Positions 5,413 through 33,433 of a DNA stretch of 33,433 bases are shown piece by piece (the stretch's first letter is position 1; every line of letters starts with the position of its first letter). Under the pieces are notes generated by a model. The model saw only the letters and a list, made by a program, of their open reading frames with translations. It had not been told where the DNA came from and ran no database searches. The DNA lies in the IMG/VR virus record IMGVR_UViG_2917849834_000007, positions 1-33,433 of that record, one strand, 5' to 3'. The position numbers were made by a program, and so were the translations under genes. The DNA comes from a virus. Lineage: Duplodnaviria > Heunggongvirae > Uroviricota > Caudoviricetes.

Positions 5413-6603
5413 TTAATTGCTGTTAACCGAGGTGACCAGATTTGCCAGGTATTTATCGGTAATACGCTGGCGCAGGGTCAGGTTTTCAAGAGGAGGCACC
5501 GGGGTATAGTCGTAGTCGATATACAGTTTTCCGGCCTTGAGGGTTTCCGCATCGTTGGATTCTTCGCTGAACCAGCAGGTCGCATCCACGATATAGCCGT
5601 TTGTTTTCAGCTCACGGAATTTGGCATTGATACCGTCAACGATGTCGCGAATCAGCGTTGCGGTGATGGGCTTGTCCACCGCCCACATGTGCGCCTCAGC
5701 CATCGTGTCGGCCAGCACCTGCGCGGTGCGGGTGTAGTTTTCAAAGAGGAACAGCGGGTCATCAGAGCAGGTACGGTTACCCCAGAATCGGAAACCGTCG
5801 CGGCGAATCAGCGTAGTGACGCCTGACTCGTTAAGCAGGTCAGCATCAGTGCCGGACTCCTGCAAATCCCAGAATACAGATGCGCTGATGCCGGTAACAC
5901 CGTTTACCCCGACGTTGGACAGCGTTTTATGCCAGCCCTGCTCCTGGTCGATTTTAGCGCGCAGACCCAGCGCACGGGCGGTGGCATACGCGGTGGCGGT
6001 GGTGCTGGTGACCGTATCCCATGCGAGGAAATCCGGCCAGATGACCATCAGCTCACGCTGGCTGAAATTCTGGCGGTAGGCTTTCACCTCGGAAATGGTT
6101 TTACAGCCCCATGCGCTGATATACCCGAAAGCGCGCAGCTTCTGACAGACAGATGCCAGTGCAACAGCCACCTCTTTGGTGTCCAGTCCCGGTACGCCGA
6201 GAATACGCGGTTTAACACCGGTTACCGACTCCGCCGCCAGCAGGGCTTTCAGTCCGGTGTACTGACCGTTTTCGTCGGTGGTGCCGATGATATTGGAAAC
6301 GGTCTGCGCGAGTTTCGTTTCTTCGTCTTCGCCGGTGCCGTCTTCCACGCGCACGACAACGGTGACTGGTTTTGACTGGTCAGCGATGGCCTGCAATGAC
6401 GCCGCCAGCGTGCCTTTTTTACCTGCCTTTGCAATTGCGCTCTGCACATTGGTAATCAGCACCGGTTTATTGAGGGGGAAGGTTTCCGCATCCGCATCGC
6501 TGGCCGTACAGACCATGCCGACAATGGCAGTGGATACGGTGGAAATGACGCGGGTGCCGTCGTTAATCTCCAGCACCTGCACGCCGTGATGATAATCACT
6601 CAT
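5413..6603 (-). CDS. FI: Contractile tail sheath protein FI, 396 aa
   Basis: ORF track; ATG at 6601-6603 with GGAG ribosome-binding site upstream; position and size as P2 gpFI. Confidence 0.9.
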   Translation of the reverse strand: MSDYHHGVQVLEINDGTRVISTVSTAIVGMVCTASDADAETFPLNKPVLITNVQSAIAKAGKKGTLAASLQAIADQSKPVTVVVRVEDGTGEDEETKLAQTVSNIIGTTDENGQYTGLKALLAAESVTGVKPRILGVPGLDTKEVAVALASVCQKLRAFGYISAWGCKTISEVKAYRQNFSQRELMVIWPDFLAWDTVTSTTATAYATARALGLRAKIDQEQGWHKTLSNVGVNGVTGISASVFWDLQESGTDADLLNESGVTTLIRRDGFRFWGNRTCSDDPLFLFENYTRTAQVLADTMAEAHMWAVDKPITATLIRDIVDGINAKFRELKTNGYIVDATCWFSEESNDAETLKAGKLYIDYDYTPVPPLENLTLRQRITDKYLANLVTSVNSN

Positions 6604-6969
6604 CCGTTTAACTCCGTGGTTAATGGGTGAGTGGTATTTTCAGTTGTGCAGGGCAAGAGACGCTATTTGACCTGGCTGGTCAGTGGATGAAACAACAGAT
6701 AAAGAAAAGAGTGGCAATCAGCCCACCTGTCTTTATCTGTACTTACTCAGTTTCCAACTGAAAATTTATATAGCCAGAACACTAGACTATGAATCACTCG
6801 CAGAGCGTTTTAACCAGTGTTACGTCCACAGGCTGAACTCACAGTGAAAAGCAAATAGGGGATATTTTCCTCGTTTAAATGTTCAGTCAGGTCATTGCAA
6901 AAATCATGCACCACTGGAGTTAACCAGAGCCAAGATATAATCTCTTAGCTCTATTTACATTTAGGTACA

Positions 6970-7674
6970 TTATTTTTGTTTTTTTGGTGGCCTTGAGTGT
7001 TTTTCCGGTAATTTTTCTACGATTTTAAAAATGTTATTATCTTTTAGTACTGTTCGCATTACAAAGCTTTCTATAACAGCCAAAAGCGATTTAAATTCAT
7101 CTTCGTTCGGTGCCCATGCCCTATGTGCAGCTGAGTTGCCAGCTTCAGTTACAATTTTAAGTTGCTCTTTTTCTTTTTCCCCGATAAAACCTTCATCTTT
7201 GAGAATATCAACTTTCTGGCTTAATGTATATCCAGGGTGAATATCCAGAACCTCAACGGTTCTGTCAAAAATAGTTCTAAGCCCAATTGCCGCCAAAATG
7301 AATGATTTATTTTGAAATGCGATATACATTTCGTTCATTATTACATATAGCTGATAATCTTTGCTTAGCACCTCACCAAACCAATCAGGTCTAATTTCTT
7401 CCTGCTCTTGAGTAGGATATATTGATATATGTTCGTTATATATCATAAAATCATGCCCCGACCCATCTCTTTCTATGTCGTAATCTTCACTGTGACGGGA
7501 CTTTATATATGTAAATACTCCATCACACCCCATACACTCTAATAAATTATATTCACTCTCAGCCCAAAAGTAGTCATCCCCATCATTTTTACTCCACTCT
7601 CTTTTTGTATGACCTATTGTGAGACAATTTTTTTCACCTTTACAGTATGGGCAAGGCGCTTTAATTTTTTCCAT
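6970..7674 (-). CDS. AT-rich cargo protein, 234 aa, N-terminal CxxC...CxxC zinc ribbon, at the Z/fun position
   Basis: ORF track; ATG at 7672-7674; CPYC (aa 7-10) and CMGC (aa 47-50); sits between G and FI, flanked by non-coding AT-rich DNA (6604-6969 and 7675-7933); composition clearly lower in GC than the flanking tail genes. Confidence 0.75.
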   Translation of the reverse strand: MEKIKAPCPYCKGEKNCLTIGHTKREWSKNDGDDYFWAESEYNLLECMGCDGVFTYIKSRHSEDYDIERDGSGHDFMIYNEHISIYPTQEQEEIRPDWFGEVLSKDYQLYVIMNEMYIAFQNKSFILAAIGLRTIFDRTVEVLDIHPGYTLSQKVDILKDEGFIGEKEKEQLKIVTEAGNSAAHRAWAPNEDEFKSLLAVIESFVMRTVLKDNNIFKIVEKLPEKHSRPPKKQK

Positions 7675-7933
7675 GATAATTATTTTCCGCTTGAGTTAAC
7701 ATCGATACAGCATACATGCAAATAGGTTACAAATGATAACTTGACTGTATGTTTTACCACAATAATGTTTATGTGAAGTAGTTACAAGCATCCCTTTTTC
7801 TTTTACCGTAGATTATTTGCATTTATTAACACTGAGTTGGGGCATAATTTCCGCATTTGGCACAGGGCAGACCGCCAGATTGGGTTCTACACTGTGCTAT
7901 AGATGCGTAACCCCACACCAGATCTAATACGAT

Positions 7934-8512
7934 TTATTGTGGCATTTCCGGCCATTCTATATCCGGAGCATTTTCCGGCTGAACGCGATTCAGTAGCACA
8001 CGGTATTTTTTCCAGTGTGTCAGGCTTAACTTTTCTTCCTCGGTAGCCATATCTAAATCGACAGCATCCTGCAGCGTGGCAATAATTTCACCTGCATATG
8101 CAATCAGCTCTTTCTTCTGAGAGTCAGCCGCTCTGACAAGCGCATCACGCTCTGCATTCTCATCATTCACCCACGCATTTCCGTCCCATTTCTGATAATC
8201 CCCATCCGGGGAAATGGCTGTCACGTCTGGAGGTAATGCGCCAAGTTCAGAAATATAAATGGCTGCTCCCGTTTTCGTTTCGTAGACAGTCTTTCCGCGA
8301 TGATCTTCCATCAACTCCCATTTCATTTCATCTGCATTGAAAACGGCTGCATAACCAGCCGGTATATCAGGCGGCGCAATATCTGTACTGTTTGCAGGCA
8401 GACCTGTATACGGTGGAATATACGCGTCACTTTCCCCAATAAATTCATTGGTTCCATCAAGTAAATTAAATACGCGGATAGTTTGTGCTTCTGCACTCAT
8501 TCTGAAAGCCAT
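7934..8512 (-). CDS. G: Tail fibre assembly chaperone, 192 aa
   Basis: ORF track; ATG at 8510-8512 overlaps the H stop (TAA 8512-8514); position downstream of H as in P2. Confidence 0.8.
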
Positions 8513-11136
8513 TATGCAAGCCTCACAATATAGTTAAATGCGATGTTTTTGACGGTGTTTTCTGTATTACCTGTAGCATTAACGGTAATAGAGTGCCCGT
8601 GTGAGCCAATAGCAACCGTGTGTGAATGTGCACCAATACCAACCGTATGATTATGTGCACCAATATCTACCGTGTGGGCATGATTCCCGGCAGCTCCTGA
8701 TGTGCCATTAAACGATGGGTTGTCAAAGCCTGTTTTACCGGTTTCACCATTAGTATTGGCATTCCCTCTGTAAATGGTATGTGTATGGTTACCAGTGGTA
8801 TTAGTGGTTTTTGTTCCGTAGTTAAACGTACTGACTGTCTTCGTCCCGTAATCAAACGAACTGGTTGTTTTCGTTCCCAAATCCGTATTTGACGCACTGG
8901 CACTGTGAGTATGCGATTTAATCCCGTCCTGTTCCTGTGACAATACGGCACGCCCACTGGCGGGTTTGCCCTTGATTGTCCAGCCGCGCATATCAGGAAT
9001 AACACCAGAAGGATAGGCTATAGCCAGTTTCGGATATGCTGCCTTATCAAACGTCTGCCCCTGCATGATTGCATAGCCTGCAGGTGGTGTATCTGATGGC
9101 CACGGCAGCGGAACACCAGGCGGAAACGCTTCAATATTTGCCGAGCCGTCAAATTTTACGCCGTTAATTGTCCTTGCCGTTTTCAGCTTTGTTGCTGTAG
9201 CCGCATTGCCGGACAGTTCACCAGAAAGGCCTGCACTGAATGTCTGTTTTGCCTCCCATGTCTGGGCTTCGTCGATAATTGGTAGCCGACGAATATTGAA
9301 GCTACGCTCCCCAGGATTGCCATATAAGCGGACTGTAAAAAAACGATAGTTGGTTTTGTTTGAAGTGCTGCGCCATACCTGCATTGAACGGGCGACACCT
9401 CCGCCTTCACTGGGGCCAACAGTGATATTTATCAGGTTAGTATCAATGACGCCCCATTCCATCCCATCGGGAATATTGGTCATATCTGAAAGCCTGACAG
9501 TTATCATGCTGCCCGGTATAAAGTCGTAGGTCTGCCAGTCCAGACTGGATAACCTGTCGGTAACACCGCCGACACCTAATTTAGTGAGTAATGATTTTGA
9601 GTTGTATACTTCCGCCCATTCCCCCCAGTCAGTTTCACCGCTGGCGCGGGTTCGCTGAAATGTCCGGTTTTTATAGGCATCCGTTGCTGAAACAGTCGTA
9701 TATGTCTGGATATACGATTCAATATCACAACGTTTTTTCACCTCAACTATTGAGCCAACAGCAAGATCTTTAGAGTCGGTGACAGGTGCATTTGTGGCCT
9801 GTTTCGTGACGCTATAAATACCAGGCTTTAAAAGGTCATCAAGATCCCCTGAATAAGTCCATCCCGTGGACTGATACCCAACAGCAATCCAGTCCTCCCA
9901 TTGTGGATTTTCTGCATCCCATGAGGCTGTCAGTCCGCGAATGTACATAGTCCCACTACGGGTGGTATAACGTTGCATCCTCCCATACAGACCGCCTTCA
10001 AAGACTTCCAGAATACCCTGTCCAAAACTCCCTTCCTCCGGGAAATGACGGTCAAATGAGGCTATTGATGTACTACTATTGCGCCATATTCCCAGGTGTT
10101 CCGCACCACCTAAAGAATTCAGGTCAATTGACGTGCTTAATGGGCGAGTCCCGCTTGTAATAACTCTCCATGCACTCCATACAGGACTGACAGGGTTCCA
10201 TTCTGCATCAAGCATCCGAATGTAAATATTACCGGTTCGGGTGGTGTAGCGTTGTGTGCAGTGAAAGCGACCAGCATTGAATACTTCCAGAACCCCATTG
10301 CCTTTATCTTCAGGGTAACCAGACTCTGGTTTTGCAGTGGATTGTGACGGACATGACCACGTTCCAAGATATTTTTCTTCTGGGCCATAGGAATCAAGAT
10401 TGTCAGTGGTTGGAATCATTCCATTGTGTTTCATAAACGTCAGGCTGGTAACGCCAATATTGTCCAGAAAAGCGCCCTTATCTGGAATATCGCCACCGTT
10501 CTGGTCTTTCTGCAGACGTTTCTCAGCATTGTCATAGGCTGCTTTTACTGCCTTTGGCGTTGCTGCCAGCTTTTCACTGGTGCTGTTTGTTGCACTGCTT
10601 AACTGAGTAAAACCTTTTTCTGTCAGCGTGGCGTCAGGATGGCGGCGGGACTGCTCATGCTCTGCGATTTTGTCATCGACGTAATCCTGCGTCGCCATCA
10701 CTGTGCTGGCATCAATACTCAGCTCAACAGACGCCACGTTACTGACAATAATGACCATGCGGCAGGTCTGCGCACGCCCGGAGCCTTCAGCCAGTTCAGG
10801 CTTATAGCTTTCTGCCATGTTAGCGACCGCAATCAGTGTTCCGGCATCATCATACAGACCAAGTTCACGCATCCAGAAGCCGCCCACTTCTGGCGGTACA
10901 ACCAGTTCAGCCACGATATAGTTTTTATTCTTGTTATCCACGCTGACTTTATTCAGAGCGTGACGCCAGACCTCATGCACCAGTTTCGTCTGACCGGCAT
11001 CCGGCACCGGCAATTTGCCATTACCGTCACCCACGGCCATTGCAGACAGGTTTACTTTTTTCCCGCCGGGGACAGTGGCGGCTGCCAGCTTTGCGGCTCC
11101 GGCAGTAGTGATAACGGTTTTAAATTTCGTGCTCAT
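8512..11136 (-). CDS. H: Tail fibre protein, 874 aa
   Basis: ORF track; N-terminus resembles P2 gpH as recalled; C-terminal His-x-His repeats ([24 protein letters not shown]). Confidence 0.85.
8600..8681 (-). repeat. Three imperfect ~27-bp tandem coding repeats inside H (HxH motif repeats)
   Basis: Read directly: ccaatagcaaccgtgtgtgaatg / tgcaccaataccaaccgtatgattatg / tgcaccaatatctaccgtgtgggcatg. Confidence 0.6.
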
Positions 11137-20002: not shown

Positions 20003-21775
20003 ATGACCATCACCACAGACACCACTCTTTTACACGACCCGCGTCGTCAGGCGGCGCTGCTGTACTGGCAGGGATTTTCCGTGCCGCAGATTGCCGCCAT
20101 GTTGCAGATGAAACGCCCGACAGTGCAGAGCTGGAAACAGCGCGACGGCTGGGACAACGTTGCCCCCATCAGCCGTGTCGAAATGAGCCTGGAAGCGCGG
20201 CTGACCCAGCTCATCATCAAACCGCAGAAAACCGGCGGTGACTTCAAGGAAATTGACCTGCTGGGACGCCAGATTGAACGACTGGCACGGGTAAATCGCT
20301 ACAGCCAGACCGGCAACGAGGCAGACCTTAATCCGAACGTCGCTAACCGCAACAAAGGCGGGCGGCGCAAACCGAAAAAGAATTTTTTCAGTGACGAGGC
20401 CATCGAAAAGCTGGAGCAGATTTTCTTTGAGCAGTCTTTCGAATATCAGTTGCACTGGTATCGTGCCGGGCTTGAGCACCGCATCCGCGATATCCTGAAA
20501 TCCCGCCAGATTGGCGCGACGTTTTATTTTTCCCGCGAGGCGCTGCTGCGCGCCCTGAAAACCGGTCATAACCAGATTTTTCTGTCGGCCAGTAAAACGC
20601 AGGCGTATGTGTTCCGTGAATACATCATCGCCTTTGCCCGTCTGGTTGACGTTGACCTGACCGGTGACCCGATTGTCCTGGGCAATAACGGCGCAAAACT
20701 GATTTTTCTCGGCACCAACTCCAACACCGCACAGAGCCATAACGGCGACCTGTACGTCGATGAGATTTTCTGGATCCCGAATTTTCAGGTACTGCGTAAA
20801 GTGGCATCAGGTATGGCCTCACAGAGTCACCTGCGCTCGACCTATTTCTCCACCCCGTCCACGCTGGCGCACGACGCCTACCCGTTCTGGTCGGGTGAAC
20901 TGTTTAACCGGGGACGCGCCAGCGCCGCCGAACGCGTGGAAATCGACGTCAGTCATAACGCCCTTGCCGGTGGGCTTCTCTGTGCGGACGGCCAGTGGCG
21001 GCAGATTGTCACCATTGAGGACGCCCTGAAAGGTGGCTGCACGCTGTTCGACATTGAGCAGCTCAAACGCGAAAACAGCGCCGACGATTTTAAAAACCTG
21101 TTCATGTGTGAATTTGTTGACGACAAGGCGTCGGTGTTCCCGTTCGAGGAGCTGCAACGCTGCATGGTCGACACGCTGGAAGAATGGGAAGACTACGCGC
21201 CGTTTGCCGCAAATCCGTTCGGCTCCCGCCCGGTATGGATTGGTTACGACCCGTCACACCGTGGCGACAGCGCCGGATGCGTGGTGCTGGCACCGCCGGT
21301 GGTGGCCGGTGGCAAATTCAGGATACTTGAGCGTCACCAGTGGAAAGGCATGGACTTTGCCACCCAGGCTGAATCCATCCGCAAACTCACCGAAAAATAT
21401 AACGTCGAATACATCGGTATTGATGCCACCGGCCTCGGTGTCGGCGTGTTCCAGCTCGTGCGCTCGTTCTATCCCGCCGCGCGCGATATCCGCTACACAC
21501 CGGAAATGAAAACCGCAATGGTGCTCAAGGCAAAAGACGTTATCCGTCGTGGCTGTCTGGAATATGACGTCAGCGCCACCGACATCACCAGCTCGTTTAT
21601 GGCTATCCGCAAGACCATGACCAGCAGCGGACGCAGCGCCACCTATGAGGCCAGCCGCAGCGAGGAAGCCAGCCACGCCGACCTCGCCTGGGCGACCATG
21701 CACGCCCTGTTAAATGAGCCACTCACCGCCGGTATCAGCACCCCGCTGACATCCACCATTCTGGAGTTTTACTGA
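20003..21775 (+). CDS. P: Terminase large (ATPase) subunit P, 590 aa
   Basis: ATG at 20003 inside ORF 19973..21775 gives MTITTDTTLLHDPRRQAALLYWQGF...; stop TGA overlaps the Q start (TGATG at 21773-21777). Confidence 0.9.
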   Translation: MTITTDTTLLHDPRRQAALLYWQGFSVPQIAAMLQMKRPTVQSWKQRDGWDNVAPISRVEMSLEARLTQLIIKPQKTGGDFKEIDLLGRQIERLARVNRYSQTGNEADLNPNVANRNKGGRRKPKKNFFSDEAIEKLEQIFFEQSFEYQLHWYRAGLEHRIRDILKSRQIGATFYFSREALLRALKTGHNQIFLSASKTQAYVFREYIIAFARLVDVDLTGDPIVLGNNGAKLIFLGTNSNTAQSHNGDLYVDEIFWIPNFQVLRKVASGMASQSHLRSTYFSTPSTLAHDAYPFWSGELFNRGRASAAERVEIDVSHNALAGGLLCADGQWRQIVTIEDALKGGCTLFDIEQLKRENSADDFKNLFMCEFVDDKASVFPFEELQRCMVDTLEEWEDYAPFAANPFGSRPVWIGYDPSHRGDSAGCVVLAPPVVAGGKFRILERHQWKGMDFATQAESIRKLTEKYNVEYIGIDATGLGVGVFQLVRSFYPAARDIRYTPEMKTAMVLKAKDVIRRGCLEYDVSATDITSSFMAIRKTMTSSGRSATYEASRSEEASHADLAWATMHALLNEPLTAGISTPLTSTILEFY

Positions 21776-22809
21776 TGAGCAAGAAAAAAGGGAAAACACC
21801 GCAACCTGCGGCAAAAACAATGACCGCCAGCGCCCCGAAAATGGAGGCATTCACCTTCGGTGAGCCGGTACCGGTACTCGACCGGCGTGACATTCTGGAT
21901 TACGTCGAATGCATCAGTAACGGCAGATGGTATGAGCCACCGGTCAGCTTTACCGGTCTGGCAAAAAGCCTGCGTGCTGCCGTACATCACAGCTCACCGA
22001 TTTACGTTAAACGCAATATTCTGGCCTCGACATTTATCCCGCATCCGTGGCTTTCCCAGCAGGATTTCAGCCGCTTTGTGCTGGATTTTCTGGTGTTCGG
22101 TAATGCGTTTCTGGAAAAGCGTTACAGCACCACCGGTAAGGTCATCAGACTGGAAACCTCACCGGCAAAATATACCCGCCGTGGTGTGGAAGAGGATGTT
22201 TACTGGTGGGTGCCGTCCTTCAACGAGCCGACACCTTTCACGCCCGGCTCCGTGTTTCACCTGCTGGAGCCGGATATTAATCAGGAGCTGTACGGCCTGC
22301 CGGAATATCTCAGCGCCCTTAACTCTGCCTGGCTGAATGAGTCGGCCACGCTGTTCCGCCGCAAGTATTACGAAAACGGCGCACATGCCGGATACATCAT
22401 GTACGTCACCGATGCCGTGCAGGATCGCAACGATATCGAAATGCTTCGCGAAAACATGGTTAAGTCGAAAGGCCGCAATAACTTTAAAAACCTGTTTCTC
22501 TATGCCCCACAGGGGAAAGCCGACGGCATTAAAATTATCCCGCTCAGTGAAGTGGCAACGAAAGACGATTTTTTTAATATCAAAAAAGCCAGCGCCGCAG
22601 ACCTGCTGGACGCGCACCGCATCCCCTTTCAGTTGATGGGTGGCAAGCCGGAGAACGTCGGGTCACTGGGAGATATTGAGAAAGTGGCAAAGGTCTTTGT
22701 CCGCAATGAGCTTATCCCGCTACAGGACAGGATTCGGGAAATAAACGGCTGGCTCGGTCAGGAGGTCATCCGCTTTAAAAACTACTCACTGGACACTGAC
22801 AACGGCTGA
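21775..22809 (+). CDS. Q: Portal protein Q, 344 aa
   Basis: ORF track; last gene before cos, as in P2. Confidence 0.9.
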   Translation: MSKKKGKTPQPAAKTMTASAPKMEAFTFGEPVPVLDRRDILDYVECISNGRWYEPPVSFTGLAKSLRAAVHHSSPIYVKRNILASTFIPHPWLSQQDFSRFVLDFLVFGNAFLEKRYSTTGKVIRLETSPAKYTRRGVEEDVYWWVPSFNEPTPFTPGSVFHLLEPDINQELYGLPEYLSALNSAWLNESATLFRRKYYENGAHAGYIMYVTDAVQDRNDIEMLRENMVKSKGRNNFKNLFLYAPQGKADGIKIIPLSEVATKDDFFNIKKASAADLLDAHRIPFQLMGGKPENVGSLGDIEKVAKVFVRNELIPLQDRIREINGWLGQEVIRFKNYSLDTDNG

Positions 22810-22997: not shown

Positions 22998-23120
22998 CGC
23001 CCGCTTCATGGGTCGGTTTTAATGCAGGTGCATGACATGATTTCTCCGCGCCGACACTGGCACGGAGCACTCTTAACAGATAAACAATAATCATGCATTC
23101 TAATGCAGCAACATAAAAGT

Positions 23121-25142
23121 TTATAATTTCCTCAACAATTTCCCATTGTTCTTATCAAAGGATATCATTGTATAGTCATACCCTTCTAATGCCTCTTTTA
23201 AGACATTTTCATCTTCTGATGTAGCAAAAATGATCTGCCCTTGTCCTTTTGTTGTTTCTGCAGCATCTTTAAGTAACTCGGCAAAACTTACTTTATTTGC
23301 TTCTTGTTGACGAGGCTCATCAAACACAATCAATCCAGGGTGATTTGTTTGAAATTTAGAACCAACAACAAATAAACTTATTAAATAACCCCAAATGATT
23401 CTTATTCCATCACTAGCTGATGTGTCAAAACCTATATCATATCCTTCCCTAGTAGGTAAGTAATTATCTTCTGATATTGACACAAGTTTAGAATCAAAAC
23501 TTGTAAAATTATATTTTTCTAATCGTGCAACGACTTCTTTATTAAGAAATTTTAACTTATCGGCATCATTACGCGACAAGAAATTATCTGGCAATCCTTT
23601 TCTTTTCGCGATAAGCTTTTTATATCTACGGTGTAATGAATCCAACTCCAGTCTAATGTCCAATATACTTTTAATGCCATCGTTAATGGCATTAATTTTA
23701 TTCTCAATGTTTATTTTACGTCTCAGAAACTCCTCCTGAACAACCATTGAGGGATATTTTGACTCCCTTAATGCATTAATATCAACTCTAATCTTGGCTA
23801 TTTCCCCCTCTAAATCACTCCTCTCAACATCTTTAAGCTTTAATTGCTTTTCACTATCCGACAGAACAAACTCAAATGCTTTTACTTGCTCTTTAATAAA
23901 GTTCAAACTATCTTCATATGTCATCAGATTTTCTTGCGATGAAAAACTTAGCAAATTATCATTATAACTTGCACCACAAGTCGGACAAATATTTGACATT
24001 AAATCTGTTGACTTATACGCATCCGAAGATGATATTTTCTTTAAATCTTCATACTTCCTTTTATCTTCCAACAGATTATACAATCTGTTTTTGGTCGCCT
24101 GAATTTGATATTGAATATAACTTCTATGCTCACAAATCTCTTTAATCTTTAATTCCAGAGAGTTAATTTCATCATTTTTTTGACCTAATAACTTAACCAC
24201 TGATAATTGTAAAGTTTGTTCTTCTTGCTCACCAAGAGTGTCAAACTTAATTTCTTGCAACTCTTTTTCCAGTTCATTACGAACATCAACAATAGATCTA
24301 ACGACACTACCATTTTTAATAATCAAATCTATCTTATAATGATCAAATTTTGCCACTGGTTGTTCAGGAATCCCTGTGACAACTGACGACAATTTAGAAG
24401 CAATAACTTCTGCATTGTGTTTAATTAACTTCCAATCATGATAAATAATATCAAGCTCATTTCTTAACGAACTACGCAATAAAATATTATCATTAACATC
24501 AAGAGACATTAAAAATTCTAGAGCTCTTTTCTTTGGCTCTTTAATTCCAAATTGTGTTGGTACAGTCGCCATAATTGACGACCATCCTTTTTTTTGCTCA
24601 ACATACCATGCAGGGAAAAGTACGGATGGATAAAGAATAGTGTCCTTCCCATTATGGTTTGGAACATTTGGCAAACTCCAACCTATAAAATCAGCTAACC
24701 ACTTATAGAAACCACGTTCCCTTTCAGTATCGCCCTCTCTATGTAAAAAATAAGTACCACTCTTACTTTTTACATTATTCTTCTCATCTATATAAATAAC
24801 ATTATTATTATCGTGACCGATAATATTCCTTTTCAAAGATGCTTCTATTCCCTTATGATTCTTTATTTTTAGCAAAACATAAGATGATATTACACTAACT
24901 TCAACATTATCTTTTGTCGTTAGTGCTCTAGTCAAAGATGGAGGGAATGGGATTTTTCCAGAACCGACACCTAATGCCTTTTCCATCCCAAGTGCATATG
25001 CAATCCCATTCATGCAAGTTGATTTACCATGAGAATTCTCAACTCTTAATAAAAACAAGCCATTTGAAAAAGGTATACTAACACCATAACGCCCATCCGA
25101 AGTATTTGCTACTAACTCCAATGAAATAATTTCCAACGACAT
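23121..25142 (-). CDS. Rad50/SbcC-like coiled-coil ABC ATPase with CPxC zinc hook, 673 aa; third gene of cargo operon
   Basis: Hand-checked motifs: Walker A ENSHGKST near 25013-25036; central coiled coil with CPTCG near 23971-23988; Walker B GLIVFDEP near 23310-23340; signature-like SASDG. ATG at 25140-25142 with AGGTGGG ribosome-binding site. Low GC. Confidence 0.8.
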   Translation of the reverse strand: MSLEIISLELVANTSDGRYGVSIPFSNGLFLLRVENSHGKSTCMNGIAYALGMEKALGVGSGKIPFPPSLTRALTTKDNVEVSVISSYVLLKIKNHKGIEASLKRNIIGHDNNNVIYIDEKNNVKSKSGTYFLHREGDTERERGFYKWLADFIGWSLPNVPNHNGKDTILYPSVLFPAWYVEQKKGWSSIMATVPTQFGIKEPKKRALEFLMSLDVNDNILLRSSLRNELDIIYHDWKLIKHNAEVIASKLSSVVTGIPEQPVAKFDHYKIDLIIKNGSVVRSIVDVRNELEKELQEIKFDTLGEQEEQTLQLSVVKLLGQKNDEINSLELKIKEICEHRSYIQYQIQATKNRLYNLLEDKRKYEDLKKISSSDAYKSTDLMSNICPTCGASYNDNLLSFSSQENLMTYEDSLNFIKEQVKAFEFVLSDSEKQLKLKDVERSDLEGEIAKIRVDINALRESKYPSMVVQEEFLRRKINIENKINAINDGIKSILDIRLELDSLHRRYKKLIAKRKGLPDNFLSRNDADKLKFLNKEVVARLEKYNFTSFDSKLVSISEDNYLPTREGYDIGFDTSASDGIRIIWGYLISLFVVGSKFQTNHPGLIVFDEPRQQEANKVSFAELLKDAAETTKGQGQIIFATSEDENVLKEALEGYDYTMISFDKNNGKLLRKL

Positions 25143-25143
25143 A

Positions 25144-25620
25144 TTAACCCACCTGAAATATTTTATTAATGTTAGTTTCGGACAGTCCAGCCTTATGTTT
25201 ATTTAGCACCAACCTTTCTTCTTTGAACACATCAAGAGAAAGCAATTTCTCAGCGACCTTAAGCCCCTTTTCATTTATTTTGAACGCTCGTTCATTTCTC
25301 AAAATAAAATCCTCTGCTAATAATAGCTGTATTGCTCTATCTAAAGTTGGATCCAATCTTACTTCAGGCTTTAAACCTTCTTTGTTTAAAAGCCAGAATT
25401 CAAACATTGCTTCATTATTCTCTGACTTTAACATCCAATTAATTAAATGAAGTTTTTTTAAAGAACAGCAACCAGCTCTCCCTGTGACAAGGAATATTAT
25501 CAGCAACAAACTGCAACGCCACAATGGTCTCATATCACATGGCAAATGTTCAGGTCGTTTATTAAACGTAAACGGCCTTCCTATTATTTCATCTATCGTT
25601 ATATGCATTTGCTTTTCCAT
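25144..25620 (-). CDS. Small protein of unknown function, 158 aa; possible middle component
   Basis: ORF track; ATG at 25618-25620; stop TAA 25144-25146 is 1 nt from the ATPase start; start is 1 nt from the stop of the upstream gene. Low GC. Confidence 0.7.
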   Translation of the reverse strand: MEKQMHITIDEIIGRPFTFNKRPEHLPCDMRPLWRCSLLLIIFLVTGRAGCCSLKKLHLINWMLKSENNEAMFEFWLLNKEGLKPEVRLDPTLDRAIQLLLAEDFILRNERAFKINEKGLKVAEKLLSLDVFKEERLVLNKHKAGLSETNINKIFQVG

Positions 25621-25621
25621 T

Positions 25622-26542
25622 CTAAAAATCTAAAGGGCATCTTATAAGCCAATCAGAAATAACTCCCCATGTTATCTTATCCAAGTCAGCCTGTTTAAGC
25701 GTACTAACTTCCTCTTCAATACATTTCTTTAACAAAGCGATTTCATCTTTCATTATATCTGATGGTTTCGCATCTGATGAAGTAAGAAGAAAGAGACCTA
25801 CCAAATTACGTTCTCTATGTTGAACACAGTTATAGATAATTTCATAGATATCAACCCAGTCTCTCTTCAAAGCATCCAGCAAGTTTTGATAATCAAGATA
25901 TTTTTGTATTAAAAACTCTCTATATAAACCCTGCCTAGATACATCATCATTTATCTTAGGTAATTTTAAATTTAGCTTATCTAAAAAAGATGTATTTTCA
26001 CTAATAAAGTTAGCAGCATTCTCAGCCGTCGCATCATTTATATTAAAGCTTAATTGATAGTTATTTTTGCGAAGAAAGAACGCTTCTTCTATATAATTTC
26101 GATCTGTTTGCACTACTATTTGAAAATCATCAGCAACGTAAGAAATCCCTAACTCTCTTACTTTTAATGATTTTTTTGTGCAATATTGACTTAATTTCGC
26201 CGATTTATTATATGGTGTAGCTAATATCCAGCGGCTAATTTTTAATGTGCCAAAAAGCTCCTCTAATTCTTTAATGTTATCCTGAGAAAACTTTTTTATA
26301 TCAGTATAAATCTTTTTTTGTTGCGCTTTATAAAGCTTATCAATATCACTCGACTGCTCAGGCAAGTAACACTGAAAAACATGACCACTCAGAGTGTAAC
26401 ACTCCAGCCCAAAGTCGCCTCCATGCTCATCTGGCAAGTCACAACAGTTAGCAGGCTTATAATGTAGCCAAACAATATTTTTGAAATATGATTCCCACGC
26501 TTTTGGGTCACTATAAGGATCGTTATACATCGCCAAGCCCAT
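25622..26542 (-). CDS. Protein of unknown function, 306 aa; candidate effector, first gene of cargo operon
   Basis: ORF track; ATG at 26540-26542; N-terminal Cys/His/acidic cluster (NCCDLPDEHGGDFGLECY) that I cannot assign to a fold. Low GC. Confidence 0.7.
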   Translation of the reverse strand: MGLAMYNDPYSDPKAWESYFKNIVWLHYKPANCCDLPDEHGGDFGLECYTLSGHVFQCYLPEQSSDIDKLYKAQQKKIYTDIKKFSQDNIKELEELFGTLKISRWILATPYNKSAKLSQYCTKKSLKVRELGISYVADDFQIVVQTDRNYIEEAFFLRKNNYQLSFNINDATAENAANFISENTSFLDKLNLKLPKINDDVSRQGLYREFLIQKYLDYQNLLDALKRDWVDIYEIIYNCVQHRERNLVGLFLLTSSDAKPSDIMKDEIALLKKCIEEEVSTLKQADLDKITWGVISDWLIRCPLDF

Positions 26543-26652
26543 AAATCAATTTTTTGTAGTATAACTTCTTACACATCAAAGAGTAAATCCACCTAGTTTG
26601 CAAATTATCAACCTACAAGAGTGTTTCGGTGTGCAGATTTTTCATATTTAGA
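26543..26652 (-). promoter_or_regulatory. Intergenic region between A stop and the cargo operon; candidate sigma70 promoter
   Basis: Minus strand reads ...TTTACT-(18 nt)-TATACT-(about 19 nt)-ATG; -10-like hexamer at + coords 26558-26563. Read by eye only. Confidence 0.3.
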
Positions 26653-28926
26653 TTACCACCTCGAAAATGCTTCCCACGCCTTCTGAACATGGTAATGAAA
26701 TTCTTTTGCGCCATAGTTCACAATTGCACCACGCGCCAGCGCCTCAAGCTCCCATCGCTGCGGCCTGATACCGTTCTGAGCAAGGTCTACACGGATACGG
26801 GTAATTTGCAATCGTTCCGACCGGGTCAGCCTGGCTGATGGCGCTATTTCATGCGGTTTTAACGGGCTTCCGTTTCTTTGCTGACGATTTGGTGTTCTCA
26901 GTCCGTGTTTTAATGCACCTCTGAGCGCCCTCACGACCTCCGGGTCATTCCATTCGATAACACCGTCATCAACCAGATTAAGCACTGCTGCGGCGTGCTC
27001 AGAAGGTGTGGGAGCCGGTAACGAAGTATCACCACCGGTGACCTTTCCACAGTTATTGACAGGACTCCGAGGCGCGGCGATGCCGCTTTTTAAAGTCAAA
27101 GGCTCAACGACCGGCACTTTCGGAACAATGCGCCAGTCCGTCGTTCTGGTGATATGAATATGACGCGCGCCGAGATGCGGCGCGTAAATGCCGACCACTC
27201 TCTCGACTTCTTCCTCGTACTCGTTAACTTCATCCGACGGACTACGGGCGACCCTGACAGTCTGACAATCGCGCGGGACATTTGCCCCACCCTGCGCGCT
27301 GATATACAGCGCAAAATCACCACTGTCTGCGGCGGCGCGTGCAGCCTCGACACGCTCGTCAAACTCATCAGCAATGCTGACGCCGCGAGGCAATTTGCGT
27401 AGTTCACGGTAAGCCCCCATTGTCGGCAGGCCAACCGTTTTAAATTGCGGAATGCGCCACGTTGACGCCCATGTGGTAACAGCCGCAGCAGTATCTTTCA
27501 GCGGCCTGCCGGTGTCGTTATCGAGCTGCCCATCCAGTGCATAGCCGTCGATATTTTTTGAGATGTATTTCGCGATATACCCCGCAGCACCGCCCCGGTT
27601 AAGGTGTTTTGCCTGAAAACGGTTTCGCGCGGCTCCTCTTTCGTCGCCATCCTCTTTGAGCGCATAGCGACGCATGATTTCGATAATCTGGTTACGCTGG
27701 CGTGGATTACAAAAAAGCATCATATGCCAGTGCGGCGTTCCGTCGTGGTGTGGCTCGACGACACGCAAACCGTAGACCTGTAAATCATTATCCTTGAATG
27801 CCGTGCGCATCAGGCTCCAGATACGGCAGAGATAACGCTGCGCATCCTTTGGATTAAATGCCTCATCGTTCCAGCCGTGATTAAGCTGAACGGTTTTACT
27901 TTCGCCTTTTCCGACCTGACGTGTCGGGTGATACTTTGACGGCGCGGTCAGCGTGATAAACATCCCCACATCACCCTCTGCGGCGGCGTAACGCTCAATA
28001 CCGGCAATGGTGTTCATCAGCTCCATCCGGCGAATTTCTGGATTAGAAATACTGCCCATCACCTTACTGATAAGGTCGATGCGCTCGCCGGTTTCCCTGT
28101 TTTCGAGGTCGCACGATTTAAGAAATTCCAGATTTGCCTGGCGGCGTGCACGCACATCACGAATGGCATGTTTACTGGCATAAGGAGAACGGTCTTTATT
28201 GACCTCCCCGACAGCAATCAGTAACGCCTCATGCCAGCGCATACGCTGGCCTTTAAGCTGACTAATCCACCACTCATCGTTAAACAGACGGGCAATGGCA
28301 GAATATGCCTGCCTCGTGGTCATCTGTCCTTTACGGTATTTTTTCCAGTAGAGAGGGGAAATATTGAAAGCACGTGCAGCGCCAGCAACATGACCATACA
28401 GGTGAGCCTGCGCCTCATCCGTAAACAGTGATTCTTTTTCGCCATGCGCATCCACCCAGGCATCGCTGAGTTCCTCATACATCATGAAAAGCTGCGATGA
28501 GATACGGGCAGCAAACTTTTTCAGCTCCTTGTCATTCATTCCCGGCAGGCGCGCATAGTGGTCACGCTCTGCCAGAAACAGCAACGACGCGTCGGTGTTC
28601 ATTTCATGGCGCTGATTCACACGCTCAATGCGCGGCCATAAACGACGCTGAAAAGTGGATGTGAGGAAATAAAACCCGTGCACCGGGCTTTTATTGCGCC
28701 GGATGTAGTCATAGCGTGAAGTAAACAGCGAACGCAAAAAGTAAGGCAGGCGGTTAATCGTGGATAAAACACCTTGCACCTGACGCATCTCGTCACGTGT
28801 AAGGGGTCTTTCGCGCCCGACAGCCTCGCGTGGCGCGTTCCATGCATAAGCACCGGAAAACGTCTTACCGGTGCCTGCGGTAAATGCTGACGGAGGGACA
28901 AAACGCCCGGAGGCTTTAACGGCCAT
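26653..28926 (-). CDS. A: Replication initiation endonuclease A (rolling-circle initiator), about 757 aa
   Basis: ATG at 28924-28926 inside ORF 26653..28968 gives MAVKASGRFVPPSAF..., matching P2 gpA as recalled; the start at 28968 is an alternative. Confidence 0.85.
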   Translation of the reverse strand: MAVKASGRFVPPSAFTAGTGKTFSGAYAWNAPREAVGRERPLTRDEMRQVQGVLSTINRLPYFLRSLFTSRYDYIRRNKSPVHGFYFLTSTFQRRLWPRIERVNQRHEMNTDASLLFLAERDHYARLPGMNDKELKKFAARISSQLFMMYEELSDAWVDAHGEKESLFTDEAQAHLYGHVAGAARAFNISPLYWKKYRKGQMTTRQAYSAIARLFNDEWWISQLKGQRMRWHEALLIAVGEVNKDRSPYASKHAIRDVRARRQANLEFLKSCDLENRETGERIDLISKVMGSISNPEIRRMELMNTIAGIERYAAAEGDVGMFITLTAPSKYHPTRQVGKGESKTVQLNHGWNDEAFNPKDAQRYLCRIWSLMRTAFKDNDLQVYGLRVVEPHHDGTPHWHMMLFCNPRQRNQIIEIMRRYALKEDGDERGAARNRFQAKHLNRGGAAGYIAKYISKNIDGYALDGQLDNDTGRPLKDTAAAVTTWASTWRIPQFKTVGLPTMGAYRELRKLPRGVSIADEFDERVEAARAAADSGDFALYISAQGGANVPRDCQTVRVARSPSDEVNEYEEEVERVVGIYAPHLGARHIHITRTTDWRIVPKVPVVEPLTLKSGIAAPRSPVNNCGKVTGGDTSLPAPTPSEHAAAVLNLVDDGVIEWNDPEVVRALRGALKHGLRTPNRQQRNGSPLKPHEIAPSARLTRSERLQITRIRVDLAQNGIRPQRWELEALARGAIVNYGAKEFHYHVQKAWEAFSRW

Positions 28927-29191
28927 ATGAGCCAAAAGCCTCTGAACAACGCCTGCTGAGTTGCTCAACCTGCGCGTTTAAATCAGCAAAAGACTTTGCG
29001 CTTCCGGTCAGAATATCGTGATGCATCAGGCCGGAAACGAGCTGGCTTAATTTCGGGTAATAACCAACCACCGCCAGCCATTCCTGACCGGCGTTTTTAC
29101 CGCTTTCAGCTCTCTTTTTCTCGTGGAGAATAAACTGAAAGCTGTCACTGGTAACGACATAACGTTCGCCAATTTCAATACGAATACTCAT
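28916..29191 (-). CDS. Early-operon protein, P2 orf83-like, 91 aa
   Basis: ORF track; position immediately upstream of A. Confidence 0.7.
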   Translation of the reverse strand: MSIRIEIGERYVVTSDSFQFILHEKKRAESGKNAGQEWLAVVGYYPKLSQLVSGLMHHDILTGSAKSFADLNAQVEQLSRRCSEAFGSYGR

Positions 29192-30714: not shown

Positions 30715-30768
30715 GGTCTTGTGGTAAGATCGAATCGCCAAAAACAACCAACCACAAAAGGTGTAAAA

Positions 30769-30975
30769 ATGGACAAAAAAACTGTTACTGTATTTCCAGA
30801 CAAAATCACTATCGATGGTATTGTCAGTGAGGGTAAGATGAGACTACTCGCACACCTTCATACCGACTTAAACCTAAAAAGCGATAATGTTCTTGCAATT
30901 AGTATTCAACTCGAGCAATTAAAAAATCTTCATGCTACTATCGGCGAATACTTAGAGCTGAATAAAGAAAAATAA
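30769..30975 (+). CDS. Small protein of unknown function, 68 aa; AT-rich, antisense to the early operon
   Basis: ATG at 30769 preceded by AAGGTG; the ORF track entry begins at an upstream GTG (30721). Stop TAA 30973-30975 lies 2 nt from the stop of the convergent 198-aa gene. Confidence 0.55.
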   Translation: MDKKTVTVFPDKITIDGIVSEGKMRLLAHLHTDLNLKSDNVLAISIQLEQLKNLHATIGEYLELNKEK

Positions 30976-30977
30976 TT

Positions 30978-31574
30978 TCAATCTACTTTGCGCCATGAGT
31001 ATTTTTGCATTCCTGGCGCATATTTTTCTACAGCATTAATAATACTCAGCGCATCAAATTCGCTATAACCTTTTTCGTCACCCGATAACTTTGATACTCC
31101 GTAGTACACATGACCGATAAACCTGTCATTTTCATAACAAGCTCTACAGTATAGAGTCACATAGTTGCGTAATGGGGTTAGCTCGCAACCAATAATAGAA
31201 AGATCACCAAAACGCAAAATCTCAAATTTACTTGATTTGCTTCTTTTTGTTTTAGTTGGGGCATGTTGATTCTGGCTGATTAACGCAAATGACTCTTGTA
31301 AATTATTTATAATCTCATTACGTTCATCTCTTTTGTTATTTTCCAGCCTGACACATCCACATTTAATTAAATGCGTCAAAGTCTCAATTTCTGCAGCTCT
31401 TACAGGTAAAGCCAGAAAATTAACTTCTTCTTCTAATTTTTTCGCTTCAATTTCTATGTCATCAACTATGGCTGATACGTTAGATTGCCCTTCAATCGAC
31501 AAAAGTCTCGTGCGCAGCTCGATGATCAACGATTGAATTTTTTTAGCTGCCGTGTTTCCTACTATAGTGTTCAT
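30978..31574 (-). CDS. Protein of unknown function, 198 aa; AT-rich cargo between cox and orf78
   Basis: ORF track; ATG at 31572-31574; no motif I recognise. Confidence 0.7.
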   Translation of the reverse strand: MNTIVGNTAAKKIQSLIIELRTRLLSIEGQSNVSAIVDDIEIEAKKLEEEVNFLALPVRAAEIETLTHLIKCGCVRLENNKRDERNEIINNLQESFALISQNQHAPTKTKRSKSSKFEILRFGDLSIIGCELTPLRNYVTLYCRACYENDRFIGHVYYGVSKLSGDEKGYSEFDALSIINAVEKYAPGMQKYSWRKVD

Positions 31575-32437: not shown

Positions 32438-33433
32438 ATGTCTATTAAAAAGCTCGATGATGGTCGTTATGAAGTGGACGTCAGACCGCAGGGTGCAGAT
32501 GGAAAACGTATCAGGCGGAAATTTAAAACTAAGGGTGAAGCTCAAGCATTCGAACGTCATGTCCTGGTTAACTACCACAACAAAGAGTGGTTGGAGAAGC
32601 CAGCCGACCGCCGAACTCTTACAGAGTTGTTAGGCAGATGGTGGATATATCACGGAAAATCACATGAGCGTGGAGATATTGAACGGGGGCGTTTGACGAC
32701 AATAATCGCCAAATTTGCAGAAATGGGAGTGTCCAGAGCTGACCAGCTAACAAAGAAAACGATAACTGATTATCGCGTTGTAATGATGAACGATGGTCTT
32801 AAACCAGCCAGCGTAAATCGGCATCTGGCAATAATGAGCGGGATGTTCACCAAGTTAATTGACGCCGGTGAATACCACTCTCACAACCCGTTCCGTGAGG
32901 TTAAGCGGTTACGTGAAGCTGTTACGGAAATGGCTTTTTTGTCCAGTGAAGAGATTACGCGGCTGTTATCCATGCTTGATGGTGATGAATTAAATGCAAC
33001 TCTGGTCTGCCTTTCTACTGGTGGACGCTGGAGTGAAGTGTCAAATTTAAAAGCTGAACACATCATTAACCAGATGGTTACGTTTATGAAAACTAAAAAC
33101 GGAAAGCGCAGGACAATTCCCGTGTCGCAGGACCTGATTAAACGGATCAAGACCAAAAATTCAGGCAGGCTTTTTAATGCCAGTTACTACAAAGTGCGCA
33201 ACGCTCTCAGGGAAGTAAAACCCGATTTACCTGACGGACAGGCAGTGCATGTTTTGAGGCATACATTTGCCACACATTTTATAATGAATGGAGGTAACAT
33301 AATCACATTGCAGCGCATCCTGGGTCATTCTAACATTCAGCAAACTATGACCTACGCACACTTTGCACCGGATTTCTTACAAGATGCTGTGACTCTTAAC
33401 CCGGTGTCAGGAATGTCCATAATGCGTCCATAA
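32438..33433 (+). CDS. int: Tyrosine integrase, 331 aa
   Basis: ORF track; GGAGGG ribosome-binding site before ATG 32438; C-terminal HxLRHTFAT...GHS...Y catalytic-motif region of tyrosine recombinases. Confidence 0.9.
   Translation: MSIKKLDDGRYEVDVRPQGADGKRIRRKFKTKGEAQAFERHVLVNYHNKEWLEKPADRRTLTELLGRWWIYHGKSHERGDIERGRLTTIIAKFAEMGVSRADQLTKKTITDYRVVMMNDGLKPASVNRHLAIMSGMFTKLIDAGEYHSHNPFREVKRLREAVTEMAFLSSEEITRLLSMLDGDELNATLVCLSTGGRWSEVSNLKAEHIINQMVTFMKTKNGKRRTIPVSQDLIKRIKTKNSGRLFNASYYKVRNALREVKPDLPDGQAVHVLRHTFATHFIMNGGNIITLQRILGHSNIQQTMTYAHFAPDFLQDAVTLNPVSGMSIMRP

What the first reader, a model, noticed from the sequence alone, without database searches (positions are those of the whole stretch)
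25144..25620. 158-aa middle gene, translationally coupled on both sides
A small protein with a Cys-containing hydrophobic N-terminal half (CDMRPLWRCSLLLIIFLVTGRAGCC) and a C-terminal helical region (LDRAIQLLLAEDFILRNERAFKINEKGLKVAEKL) that looks like a winged-helix fold. Small adaptor proteins of this size sit between effector and ATPase in three-component ABC ATPase systems. The 1-nt spacers on both sides suggest fixed stoichiometry with its neighbours.
Basis: inference. Interest (0 to 1): 0.55.

Follow-up and report, generated by a model that had tools for sequence, protein, structure and literature searches.

The report
LmuC subunit of prophage Lamassu defence
The 158-aa gene is LmuC, the small winged-helix middle subunit of a three-gene Lamassu (ABC-3C/DdmABC-type) anti-phage system carried in the known defence hotspot of a P2-like E. 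coli prophage: a divergent, untested member of a system that is already well described.

Summary
The ORF is real. It lies on the minus strand at 25144-25620, the quoted peptides are present, and it is under strong purifying selection. It matches the PADLOC LmuC model (E 2.5e-23). Its neighbours match LmuA (306 aa, E 1e-29) and LmuB (673 aa, E 1e-98), so this is an lmuA-lmuC-lmuB "short"/type II Lamassu cassette. The cassette is a 33% GC island between gpA and the portal gene, next to cos. That is the published P2 defence hotspot, where this exact cassette was catalogued in 2022 as three hypothetical proteins.

One correction: solved relatives assemble as A1:B2:C1, not 1:1:1. The likely role is a DNA-contacting clamp that helps the LmuB dimer hold the LmuA nuclease inactive until DNA ends are sensed. 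Verdict: a new member of a known kind, of modest interest.

The parts
25144..25620 (-). lmuC, the Lamassu middle component (158 aa from Met1, 154 aa from Met5). One wHTH domain: H1 28-46, beta 51-53, H2 54-64, inserted helix 67-78, recognition helix 91-102, wing 106-115. Three C-terminal helices follow (117-154). pI 8.9.
25622..26542 (-). lmuA, the effector (306 aa, or 302 aa by PGAP). N-terminal alpha/beta domain (~1-160) with a PD-(D/E)xK restriction-endonuclease fold, then a C-terminal helical bundle (173-301) resembling the LmuA C-terminal domain.
23121..25142 (-). lmuB, the SMC/Rad50-like ABC ATPase (673 aa, the 'short' class). P-loop VENSHGKS at 34-41 (Lys40), one CPTC zinc-hook motif at 386-389, signature-like SASDG at 575, Walker B LIVFDE at 604-609.
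   Evidence: PADLOC LmuB PDLC03863, E 1.1e-98, plus nine other LmuB models. Motif scan. Weak Pfam AAA_23 match.
25143..25160 (-). lmuC/lmuB junction: ...CAGGTGGGT TAA T ATG. One-base spacer, with the Shine-Dalgarno-like AGGTGG for lmuB embedded in the codons for the conserved C-terminal F-Q-V-G of LmuC.
   Evidence: Sequence. The same geometry is kept in orthologs with 1-3 nt spacers.
25606..25624 (-). lmuA/lmuC junction: TAG A ATG GAA AAG CAA ATG. The spacer is one base if Met1 is used and 13 nt if Met5 (the PGAP start) is used.
26558..26587 (-). Sigma-70-like promoter match (TTTACT-18-TATACT) in the 110-nt gap upstream of lmuA. It is a candidate cassette promoter, based on a consensus match only.
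   Evidence: 9 of 12 positions match; such matches are common in AT-rich DNA.
23000..23043 (.). cos-proximal sequence shared with the ends of deposited P2-like phage genomes. It marks the cos-adjacent defence hotspot.
   Evidence: 93-100% matches to the termini of Peduovirus, L-413C and vB_EcoM-12474 records. Rousset 2022, PMC9122126.
26653..28968 (-). gpA replication endonuclease of the P2-like prophage, the left border of the hotspot.
   Evidence: PGAP annotation of the 100%-identical E. coli locus.
21775..22809 (+). P2-family portal protein (gpQ), the right border of the hotspot.

Best explanation
The gene encodes LmuC, the middle component of a short (type II) Lamassu anti-phage system, also known as ABC-3C or DdmABC-like. 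The system is carried as lmuA-lmuC-lmuB cargo in the cos-adjacent gpA-gpQ defence hotspot of a P2-like prophage of E. coli.

Shown here: the family assignment of all three genes, the winged-helix fold of LmuC, the nuclease-fold effector with a helical C-terminal domain, the SMC-like ATPase motifs, a conserved three-gene order with 1-3 nt junctions, and the location of the cassette on a mobile element.

Inferred by analogy with the solved Vibrio cholerae and Salmonella complexes:
- One LmuC sits at the centre of an LmuA1:LmuB2:LmuC1 complex.
- It binds the zinc-hook-proximal coiled coils and one head of the LmuB dimer, and also the helical C-terminal domain of LmuA. This helps keep LmuA monomeric and inactive.
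- Its basic winged-helix surface contacts duplex DNA next to the end captured by the LmuB head.
- When LmuB senses DNA ends or replication intermediates of an invading phage and hydrolyses ATP, LmuA is released and oligomerises. Its PD-(D/E)xK-type nuclease domain then degrades DNA and aborts the infection.

The tight stop-start junctions give co-translation of the three subunits from one mRNA.
For: Family assignment.
- PADLOC: LmuC 2.5e-23, LmuA 1.1e-29, LmuB 1.1e-98.
- All 108 sampled members of the 566-cluster wider family hit the same LmuC model.

Structure.
- The LmuC AF2 model is confident (pLDDT 86) and is a wHTH.
- LmuB has a P-loop, one CxxC, a signature-like motif and an hhhhDE Walker B, and at 673 aa falls in the 'short' class (class features from PMC12663957).

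Genomic context.
- A-C-B order with 1-3 nt C/B junctions holds in all 20 related loci. These include P2-like prophages with only 34-76% identical gpA, and islands unrelated to P2.
- The cassette is 33% GC against 55% in the flanks.
- The locus is the published P2 hotspot, and the exact proteins WP_024174129 and WP_000548273 are listed there.

Mechanism, from papers.
- LmuC contacts LmuA-CTD, LmuB and DNA, and interface and DNA-binding mutants lose defence.
- Deleting lmuC abolishes defence in other Lamassu systems (10.1101/2022.05.11.491447).
- LmuC here has pI 8.9, and the family median is 9.4.
Against: - No sequence-level similarity to any solved Lamassu subunit. phmmer and profile searches of the PDB find nothing for LmuA, LmuB or LmuC, and Foldseek finds no significant PDB hit.
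- No Pfam or NCBIfam family covers LmuC or LmuA.
- The complex, its stoichiometry, DNA-end sensing and anti-phage activity have not been tested for this clade. I could not run multimer prediction.
- The LmuA active site is atypical, with Q57-x-Y59 where (D/E)-x-K is expected, so nuclease activity is not assured.
Confidence: 0.88

Rival explanations
1. A stand-alone winged-helix transcription factor (MarR/PadR/DtxR-like) that represses or activates the cassette or prophage genes, rather than a structural subunit of the ATPase complex.
Against: - All 108 sampled family members match the LmuC HMM.
- The gene is always wedged between lmuA and lmuB with 1-3 nt junctions, the reverse of a typical divergent or autoregulated regulator layout.
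- Solved homologous-fold LmuCs are integral complex subunits, and the authors likewise report HTH regulators as the top fold hits for LmuC models.
- No MarR-type dimerisation helices are evident.
Confidence: 0.05
2. A membrane-anchored or redox/metal-binding small protein. The hydrophobic Cys-rich segment (residues 28-52) would be a transmembrane helix or a Cys cluster that tethers or regulates the system.
For: Kyte-Doolittle 19-residue maximum of 1.93 at residues 36-54, above the usual 1.6 threshold. There are four Cys in 25 residues.
Against: - AF2 packs residues 28-46 as helix H1 of the wHTH, with pLDDT above 90.
- In the wide family only 6% of members exceed 1.6 (median 1.23), and the helix is amphipathic with conserved Arg (R31, R48).
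- The four Cys positions are A/P/G, I/V, K/R and A/S elsewhere in the family.
- There is no signal peptide or second hydrophobic segment.
Confidence: 0.03
3. A kleisin-like subunit that bridges the two ATPase heads of the SMC-like dimer, as in canonical SMC and Wadjet complexes, rather than a coiled-coil/hook-proximal clamp.
Against: At 158 aa with a single wHTH, the protein is too small to span two heads. The solved short Lamassu complexes show LmuC at the coiled-coil apex, contacting one head only, unlike kleisins.
Confidence: 0.04
4. A serine/threonine protein kinase, as NCBI names many orthologs.
For: Only the database name.
Confidence: 0

Closest known systems
LmuC (DdmB) of the Vibrio cholerae DdmABC / Lamassu Vc-Cap4 system (PDB 9ny5; PMC12663957)
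   Same: - Small (~160-170 aa) globular HTH-type protein encoded between lmuA and lmuB of a short Lamassu.
- Basic protein.
- Its partner LmuA has a nuclease-fold N-domain and a helical C-terminal domain.
   Different: - No detectable sequence similarity.
- The Vc LmuB has no zinc hook, whereas this LmuB has one CPTC.
- The Vc effector is Cap4 with a canonical catalytic Lys (K57), whereas this effector has Q57-x-Y59.
- This system is carried on a P2-like prophage.
LmuC of the Salmonella enterica LmuACB system (PDB 9hqx; bioRxiv 10.1101/2025.03.14.643221)
   Different: Sequence identity is about 11% in the structural alignment. This clade has not been tested experimentally.
ABC-3C systems 'middle component' (MC1-MC8) of Krishnan, Burroughs and Aravind 2020
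   Same: Same concept and gene position: effector, then MC, then ABC ATPase.
   Different: I could not assign an MC type. The paper is not held, and no Pfam family matched this LmuC or 108 of its relatives.
MarR/PadR/DtxR-type winged-helix transcription factors
   Different: There are no regulator-type dimerisation or ligand domains, the protein occurs only inside Lamassu operons, and it has extra N- and C-terminal elements.
P2 old/tin and other cargo of the P2 cos-adjacent hotspot (Rousset et al. 2022, PMC9122126)
   Same: Same insertion site between gpA and gpQ next to cos, with low-GC swappable defence cargo. This cassette is listed in their Table S5.
   Different: Unrelated proteins and mechanism. 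It was listed there only as three hypothetical proteins and was not among the systems they describe testing.

Membership tests
Lamassu type II / short Lamassu (LmuA-LmuC-LmuB; ABC-3C; DdmABC) | The middle gene matches an LmuC family model. | tested here: met
   PADLOC PDLC03871, E 2.5e-23, covering 17-156 of 158 residues. 108 of 108 relatives match the same model.
Lamassu type II / short Lamassu (LmuA-LmuC-LmuB; ABC-3C; DdmABC) | An adjacent SMC/Rad50-like ABC ATPase (LmuB) of about 600-700 aa with a P-loop, Walker B hhhhD[Q/S/T/E], a long coiled coil and optionally a CxxC hook. | tested here: met
   PADLOC LmuB, E 1.1e-98. GKS at 39-41, LIVFDE at 604-609, CPTC at 386-389, SASDG at 575. The coiled coil itself was not modelled.
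Lamassu type II / short Lamassu (LmuA-LmuC-LmuB; ABC-3C; DdmABC) | An LmuA with an N-terminal effector domain and a helical C-terminal domain (a bundle of 5-6 helices in short systems). | tested here: met
Lamassu type II / short Lamassu (LmuA-LmuC-LmuB; ABC-3C; DdmABC) | Conserved operon order lmuA-lmuC-lmuB, inherited as a unit. | tested here: met
   The order holds in all 20 related loci, in P2-like prophages and in unrelated islands.
Lamassu type II / short Lamassu (LmuA-LmuC-LmuB; ABC-3C; DdmABC) | The LmuC fold resembles solved LmuC. | tested here: inconclusive
Lamassu type II / short Lamassu (LmuA-LmuC-LmuB; ABC-3C; DdmABC) | Assembly as LmuA1:LmuB2:LmuC1, with LmuC contacting the LmuA C-terminal domain, LmuB and DNA. 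| not testable with these tools
   No multimer prediction or experiment was available. Known only for the Vc and SalEnt systems.
Lamassu type II / short Lamassu (LmuA-LmuC-LmuB; ABC-3C; DdmABC) | Anti-phage or anti-plasmid protection that requires all three genes. | not testable with these tools
   Shown for other Lamassu systems. I found no report for this cassette. It differs from the tested E. coli SE15 Lamassu-Mrr at the DNA level: only 32 genomes carry it, and strain SE15 is not among the 32 listed.
Pfam/NCBIfam-defined ABC-3C middle-component or other curated family | A match above threshold to a curated family model. | tested here: not met
   No Pfam or NCBIfam hit for the protein. Among 108 relatives there were only 4 weak HTH_45 hits.
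Winged helix-turn-helix fold | H1-beta-H2-H3-beta-hairpin topology with a recognition helix and a wing. | tested here: met
PD-(D/E)xK nuclease (for the partner LmuA) | Catalytic D...(D/E)-x-K motif on beta2/beta3. | tested here: inconclusive
   The fold matches FokI, Mrr-like and CdiA-CT nucleases. The invariant residues are D43, E47 and Q57-C58-Y59, with K77, D81 and K84 on the next helix. There is no Lys at the canonical position.

The most novel reading that the evidence does not exclude
This prophage-borne Lamassu clade, which is invisible to Pfam and unrelated in sequence to the solved systems, may use its LmuC winged helix as a specificity factor. That would let a DNA-end-sensing immune complex attack competing phages while tolerating P2's own cos ends and rolling-circle intermediates. 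It may also be paired with a non-canonical (Q-x-Y) PD-(D/E)xK-fold effector whose chemistry differs from Cap4 and Mrr nucleases.
Probability: 0.12. Interest if true: 0.6.

Novelty: new member of a known kind. Interest (0 to 1): 0.25.

Why it matters
The result gives a correct name and a likely role to a gene that RefSeq calls "hypothetical" and that NCBI mislabels "serine/threonine protein kinase" in many Enterobacterales. The same cassette was listed as three hypothetical proteins in the original P2-hotspot catalogue. It adds a divergent, phage-borne Lamassu clade, found in 32 of 5,426 complete E. coli genomes including O145:H28 outbreak strains, with relatives in other Enterobacterales genera such as Serratia, Pantoea, Cronobacter, Salmonella, Proteus and Xenorhabdus. 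This clade could be used to test how general the LmuA-sequestration and DNA-end-sensing model is. It also raises the question of how a temperate phage that itself makes DNA ends avoids self-triggering. It does not reveal a new kind of system.

Tried and rejected
- phmmer of LmuC, LmuA and LmuB against PDB sequences found nothing relevant, even at E 10.
- A profile of 108 LmuC relatives against the PDB gave only weak wHTH signals (Sso10a at E 0.047, DtxR at about 1) and no solved LmuC.
- Pfam and NCBIfam gave no family for any of the three proteins, nor for 108 LmuC and 47 LmuA relatives.
- I could not assign an ABC-3C MC type or LmuA CTD type. The Krishnan 2020 paper is not held.
- The search for related loci failed with the wide alignment because there was no conserved stretch. 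The GTDB genome scan returned only 3 loci.
- No deposited phage genome carries the cassette, by DNA or tblastn search.
- I tested whether this is the experimentally validated E. coli SE15 'Lamassu-Mrr'. SE15 is not among the 32 E. coli genomes with the cassette, even in distant blastn mode, so there is no direct experimental support.
- The transmembrane and Cys-cluster idea was rejected.
- The kinase annotation was rejected.
- Rfam and tRNA scans of the whole window found nothing.

Full report
OBSERVATION

On the minus strand, 25144-25620 is a 158-codon ORF. It is flanked by a 306-aa ORF upstream (25622-26542) and a 673-aa ORF downstream (23121-25142), both on the same strand.

The junctions read TAG-A-ATG for the 306-aa gene into the 158-aa gene, and TAA-T-ATG for the 158-aa gene into the 673-aa gene. 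The downstream junction carries an AGGTGG Shine-Dalgarno sequence 6 nt before the ATG, embedded in the last codons (F-Q-V-G) of the middle gene.

The upstream 1-nt spacer depends on the start codon. PGAP starts the protein at Met5, giving 154 aa and a 13-nt spacer. Orthologs use either position: L003, L005 and L009 have an ATG at position 1, 1-2 nt after the lmuA stop, and lack Met5. L002 and L004 start at the Met5 position, 11 nt downstream of the stop and preceded by GGTGA. Residues 1-5 are disordered in the model. Either way the genes are tightly packed.

The ORF is a real gene. There are about 31 clusters of close homologs, and 566 cluster representatives at 50% identity match its profile. 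Against orthologs, nonsynonymous divergence is 0.21-0.30 while synonymous sites are saturated at 0.74-0.84.

WHAT IT IS

PADLOC models identify all three genes. The middle gene is LmuC (E 2.5e-23), the upstream gene is LmuA (1.1e-29) and the downstream gene is LmuB (1.1e-98, plus nine further LmuB models). This is the lmuA-lmuC-lmuB layout of type II Lamassu. All 108 sampled members of the wider family hit the same LmuC model.

LmuB is 673 aa. It has a P-loop (VENSHGKS 34-41, Lys40), one CPTC zinc-hook motif (386-389), a signature-like SASDG (575) and a Walker B LIVFDE (604-609). These fit the "short Lamassu" class described in PMC12663957.

STRUCTURE OF THE MIDDLE PROTEIN

The AlphaFold2 model was built on 24 homologs and is confident (pLDDT 86, pTM 0.82). 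It shows a single winged helix-turn-helix:
- H1 at 28-46
- a short strand at 51-53
- H2 at 54-64
- an inserted helix at 67-78
- the recognition helix at 91-102
- a beta-hairpin wing at 106-115
- three more helices up to residue 154

It is not a separate module. Its hydropathy (Kyte-Doolittle 1.93) exceeds the transmembrane threshold in this protein, but in only 6% of the wide family (median 1.23). The four cysteines are replaced by A/P/G, I/V, K/R and A/S in relatives. The best-conserved positions family-wide are R31, P91, A96, G119, E135, W62 and F19. The protein is basic, with pI 8.9 against a family median of 9.4.

CONTEXT

The cassette is a 33% GC island in 52-58% GC DNA. It lies between the P2-type replication endonuclease gpA (26653-28968) and the portal gene (21775-22809). 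It sits directly next to sequence shared with the termini (cos) of deposited P2-like phages. Rousset et al. 2022 described this site as the cos-adjacent defence hotspot that holds old/tin in P2 (PMC9122126). Their supplementary table lists exactly these proteins (WP_024174129 + WP_106121066 + WP_000548273) as "hypothetical + hypothetical + hypothetical".

The cassette is at least 99.4% identical in 32 of 5,426 complete E. coli genomes, including O145:H28 RM12761 and RM13516. No diverged copies are detectable at the DNA level. No deposited phage genome carries it.

Orthologous cassettes (LmuA 63-78%, LmuC 51-68%, LmuB 57-69% identical) occupy the same gpA-portal slot in P2-like prophages whose gpA is only 34-76% identical. 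They also occur in unrelated, integrase-associated islands of Salmonella arizonae, Proteus, Citrobacter and Xenorhabdus. The order is always A-C-B and the C/B spacers are 1-3 nt.

MECHANISM (INFERRED)

The solved V. cholerae and Salmonella complexes are LmuA1:LmuB2:LmuC1. In them LmuC sits centrally. It contacts the hook-proximal coiled coils and one head of LmuB, the C-terminal domain of LmuA, and duplex DNA beside the DNA end held by the LmuB head. Interface and DNA-binding mutants of LmuC abolish defence. Activation releases LmuA, which oligomerises into an active nuclease. Deleting lmuC abolishes defence in other Lamassu systems.

By analogy, the window's LmuC most likely acts as a DNA-contacting clamp and co-sensor. 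It would help sequester LmuA until LmuB senses foreign DNA ends or replication intermediates. The tight junctions support co-translation from one mRNA. None of this has been tested for this clade, and I could not run multimer prediction.

RIVALS

Four alternatives were considered:
- An autonomous wHTH regulator. This fits the fold but not the invariant operon position.
- A membrane or Cys-cluster protein. This is contradicted by the model and by family conservation.
- A kleisin-like head bridge. The protein is too small, and this does not match the solved short Lamassu complexes.

NOVELTY AND VERDICT

This is a divergent, experimentally untested, prophage-borne member of a well-known defence family. 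Current defence-annotation HMMs detect it, but Pfam and NCBIfam do not, and RefSeq mislabels it. I rate it a new member of a known kind, with interest 0.25.

The most interesting loose ends are the atypical LmuA active site (invariant D43, E47 and Q57-x-Y59, with K77, D81 and K84 on the next helix) and the question of how a DNA-end sensor carried by a cos-packaging phage avoids self-activation.

Noticed in passing
window 25622-26542 (-), LmuA residues 42-84: The LmuA effector has a PD-(D/E)xK-type fold. However, the invariant motif across 47 homologs is G42-D43-x-G45-x-E47 ... Q57-C58-Y59, with K77, D81 and K84 on the following helix. There is no lysine at the canonical (D/E)-x-K position, where Vc LmuA has the catalytic K57. 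Either the Lys has migrated or the chemistry differs.
   Followed up: partly
window 25144-25620 (-) and its orthologs: NCBI and UniRef name many orthologs of this 154-158-aa wHTH protein 'serine/threonine protein kinase', including in one E. coli RefSeq genome. This is a propagated misannotation. PGAP calls the rest 'hypothetical'.
   Followed up: yes
window 25143-25160 (-): The Shine-Dalgarno sequence of lmuB (AGGTGG) is encoded within the conserved C-terminal F-Q-V-G/K/R codons of lmuC. Part of the apparent protein conservation at the C-terminus may be a translation-initiation constraint.
   Followed up: partly
window 6970-7674 (-): A second low-GC island (36-39% GC, about 6800-8000) holds a 234-aa ORF with a DUF4145 domain (Pfam E 1.4e-13). 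It lies between the ORFs at 7934-11136 and 5413-6603, which are probably tail-fibre and tail-sheath genes by analogy with the P2 gene order (not annotated here). From memory, this is the position of the Z/fun variable locus of P2. There is no PADLOC hit. It is possibly another accessory or defence cargo gene.
   Followed up: partly
window 30721-31574: A third low-GC patch (about 37% GC) holds a 198-aa ORF (30978-31574, -) and an 84-aa ORF (30721-30975, +). It lies downstream of the early-gene block, about 860 nt before the integrase ORF (32438-33433, +). Neither ORF has a Pfam or PADLOC match.
   Followed up: partly
L007 2226-3335 (Logan SRR10093215 contig): In one related assembly, lmuA is split into two called genes (129 aa and 140 aa) and tblastn returns two frames, while lmuC and lmuB stay intact. 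The effector gene may be pseudogenised, or there may be an assembly error.
   Followed up: no
E. coli FDAARGOS_1249, NZ_CP069459.1 263313-268079: In this genome the match to window 23000-26700 is broken into two pieces by an IS5-family transposase. The 3,422-bp three-gene core is contiguous, so the IS lies in the cassette flank.
   Followed up: no
L001 14493-15701 (E. coli RM12761): In the O145:H28 RM12761 copy of this prophage, the integrase is annotated as a partial pseudogene followed by an ISEc8 (IS66-family) transposase. The window itself has a 331-aa integrase ORF that reaches the window end. The prophage ends differ between carriers.
   Followed up: no
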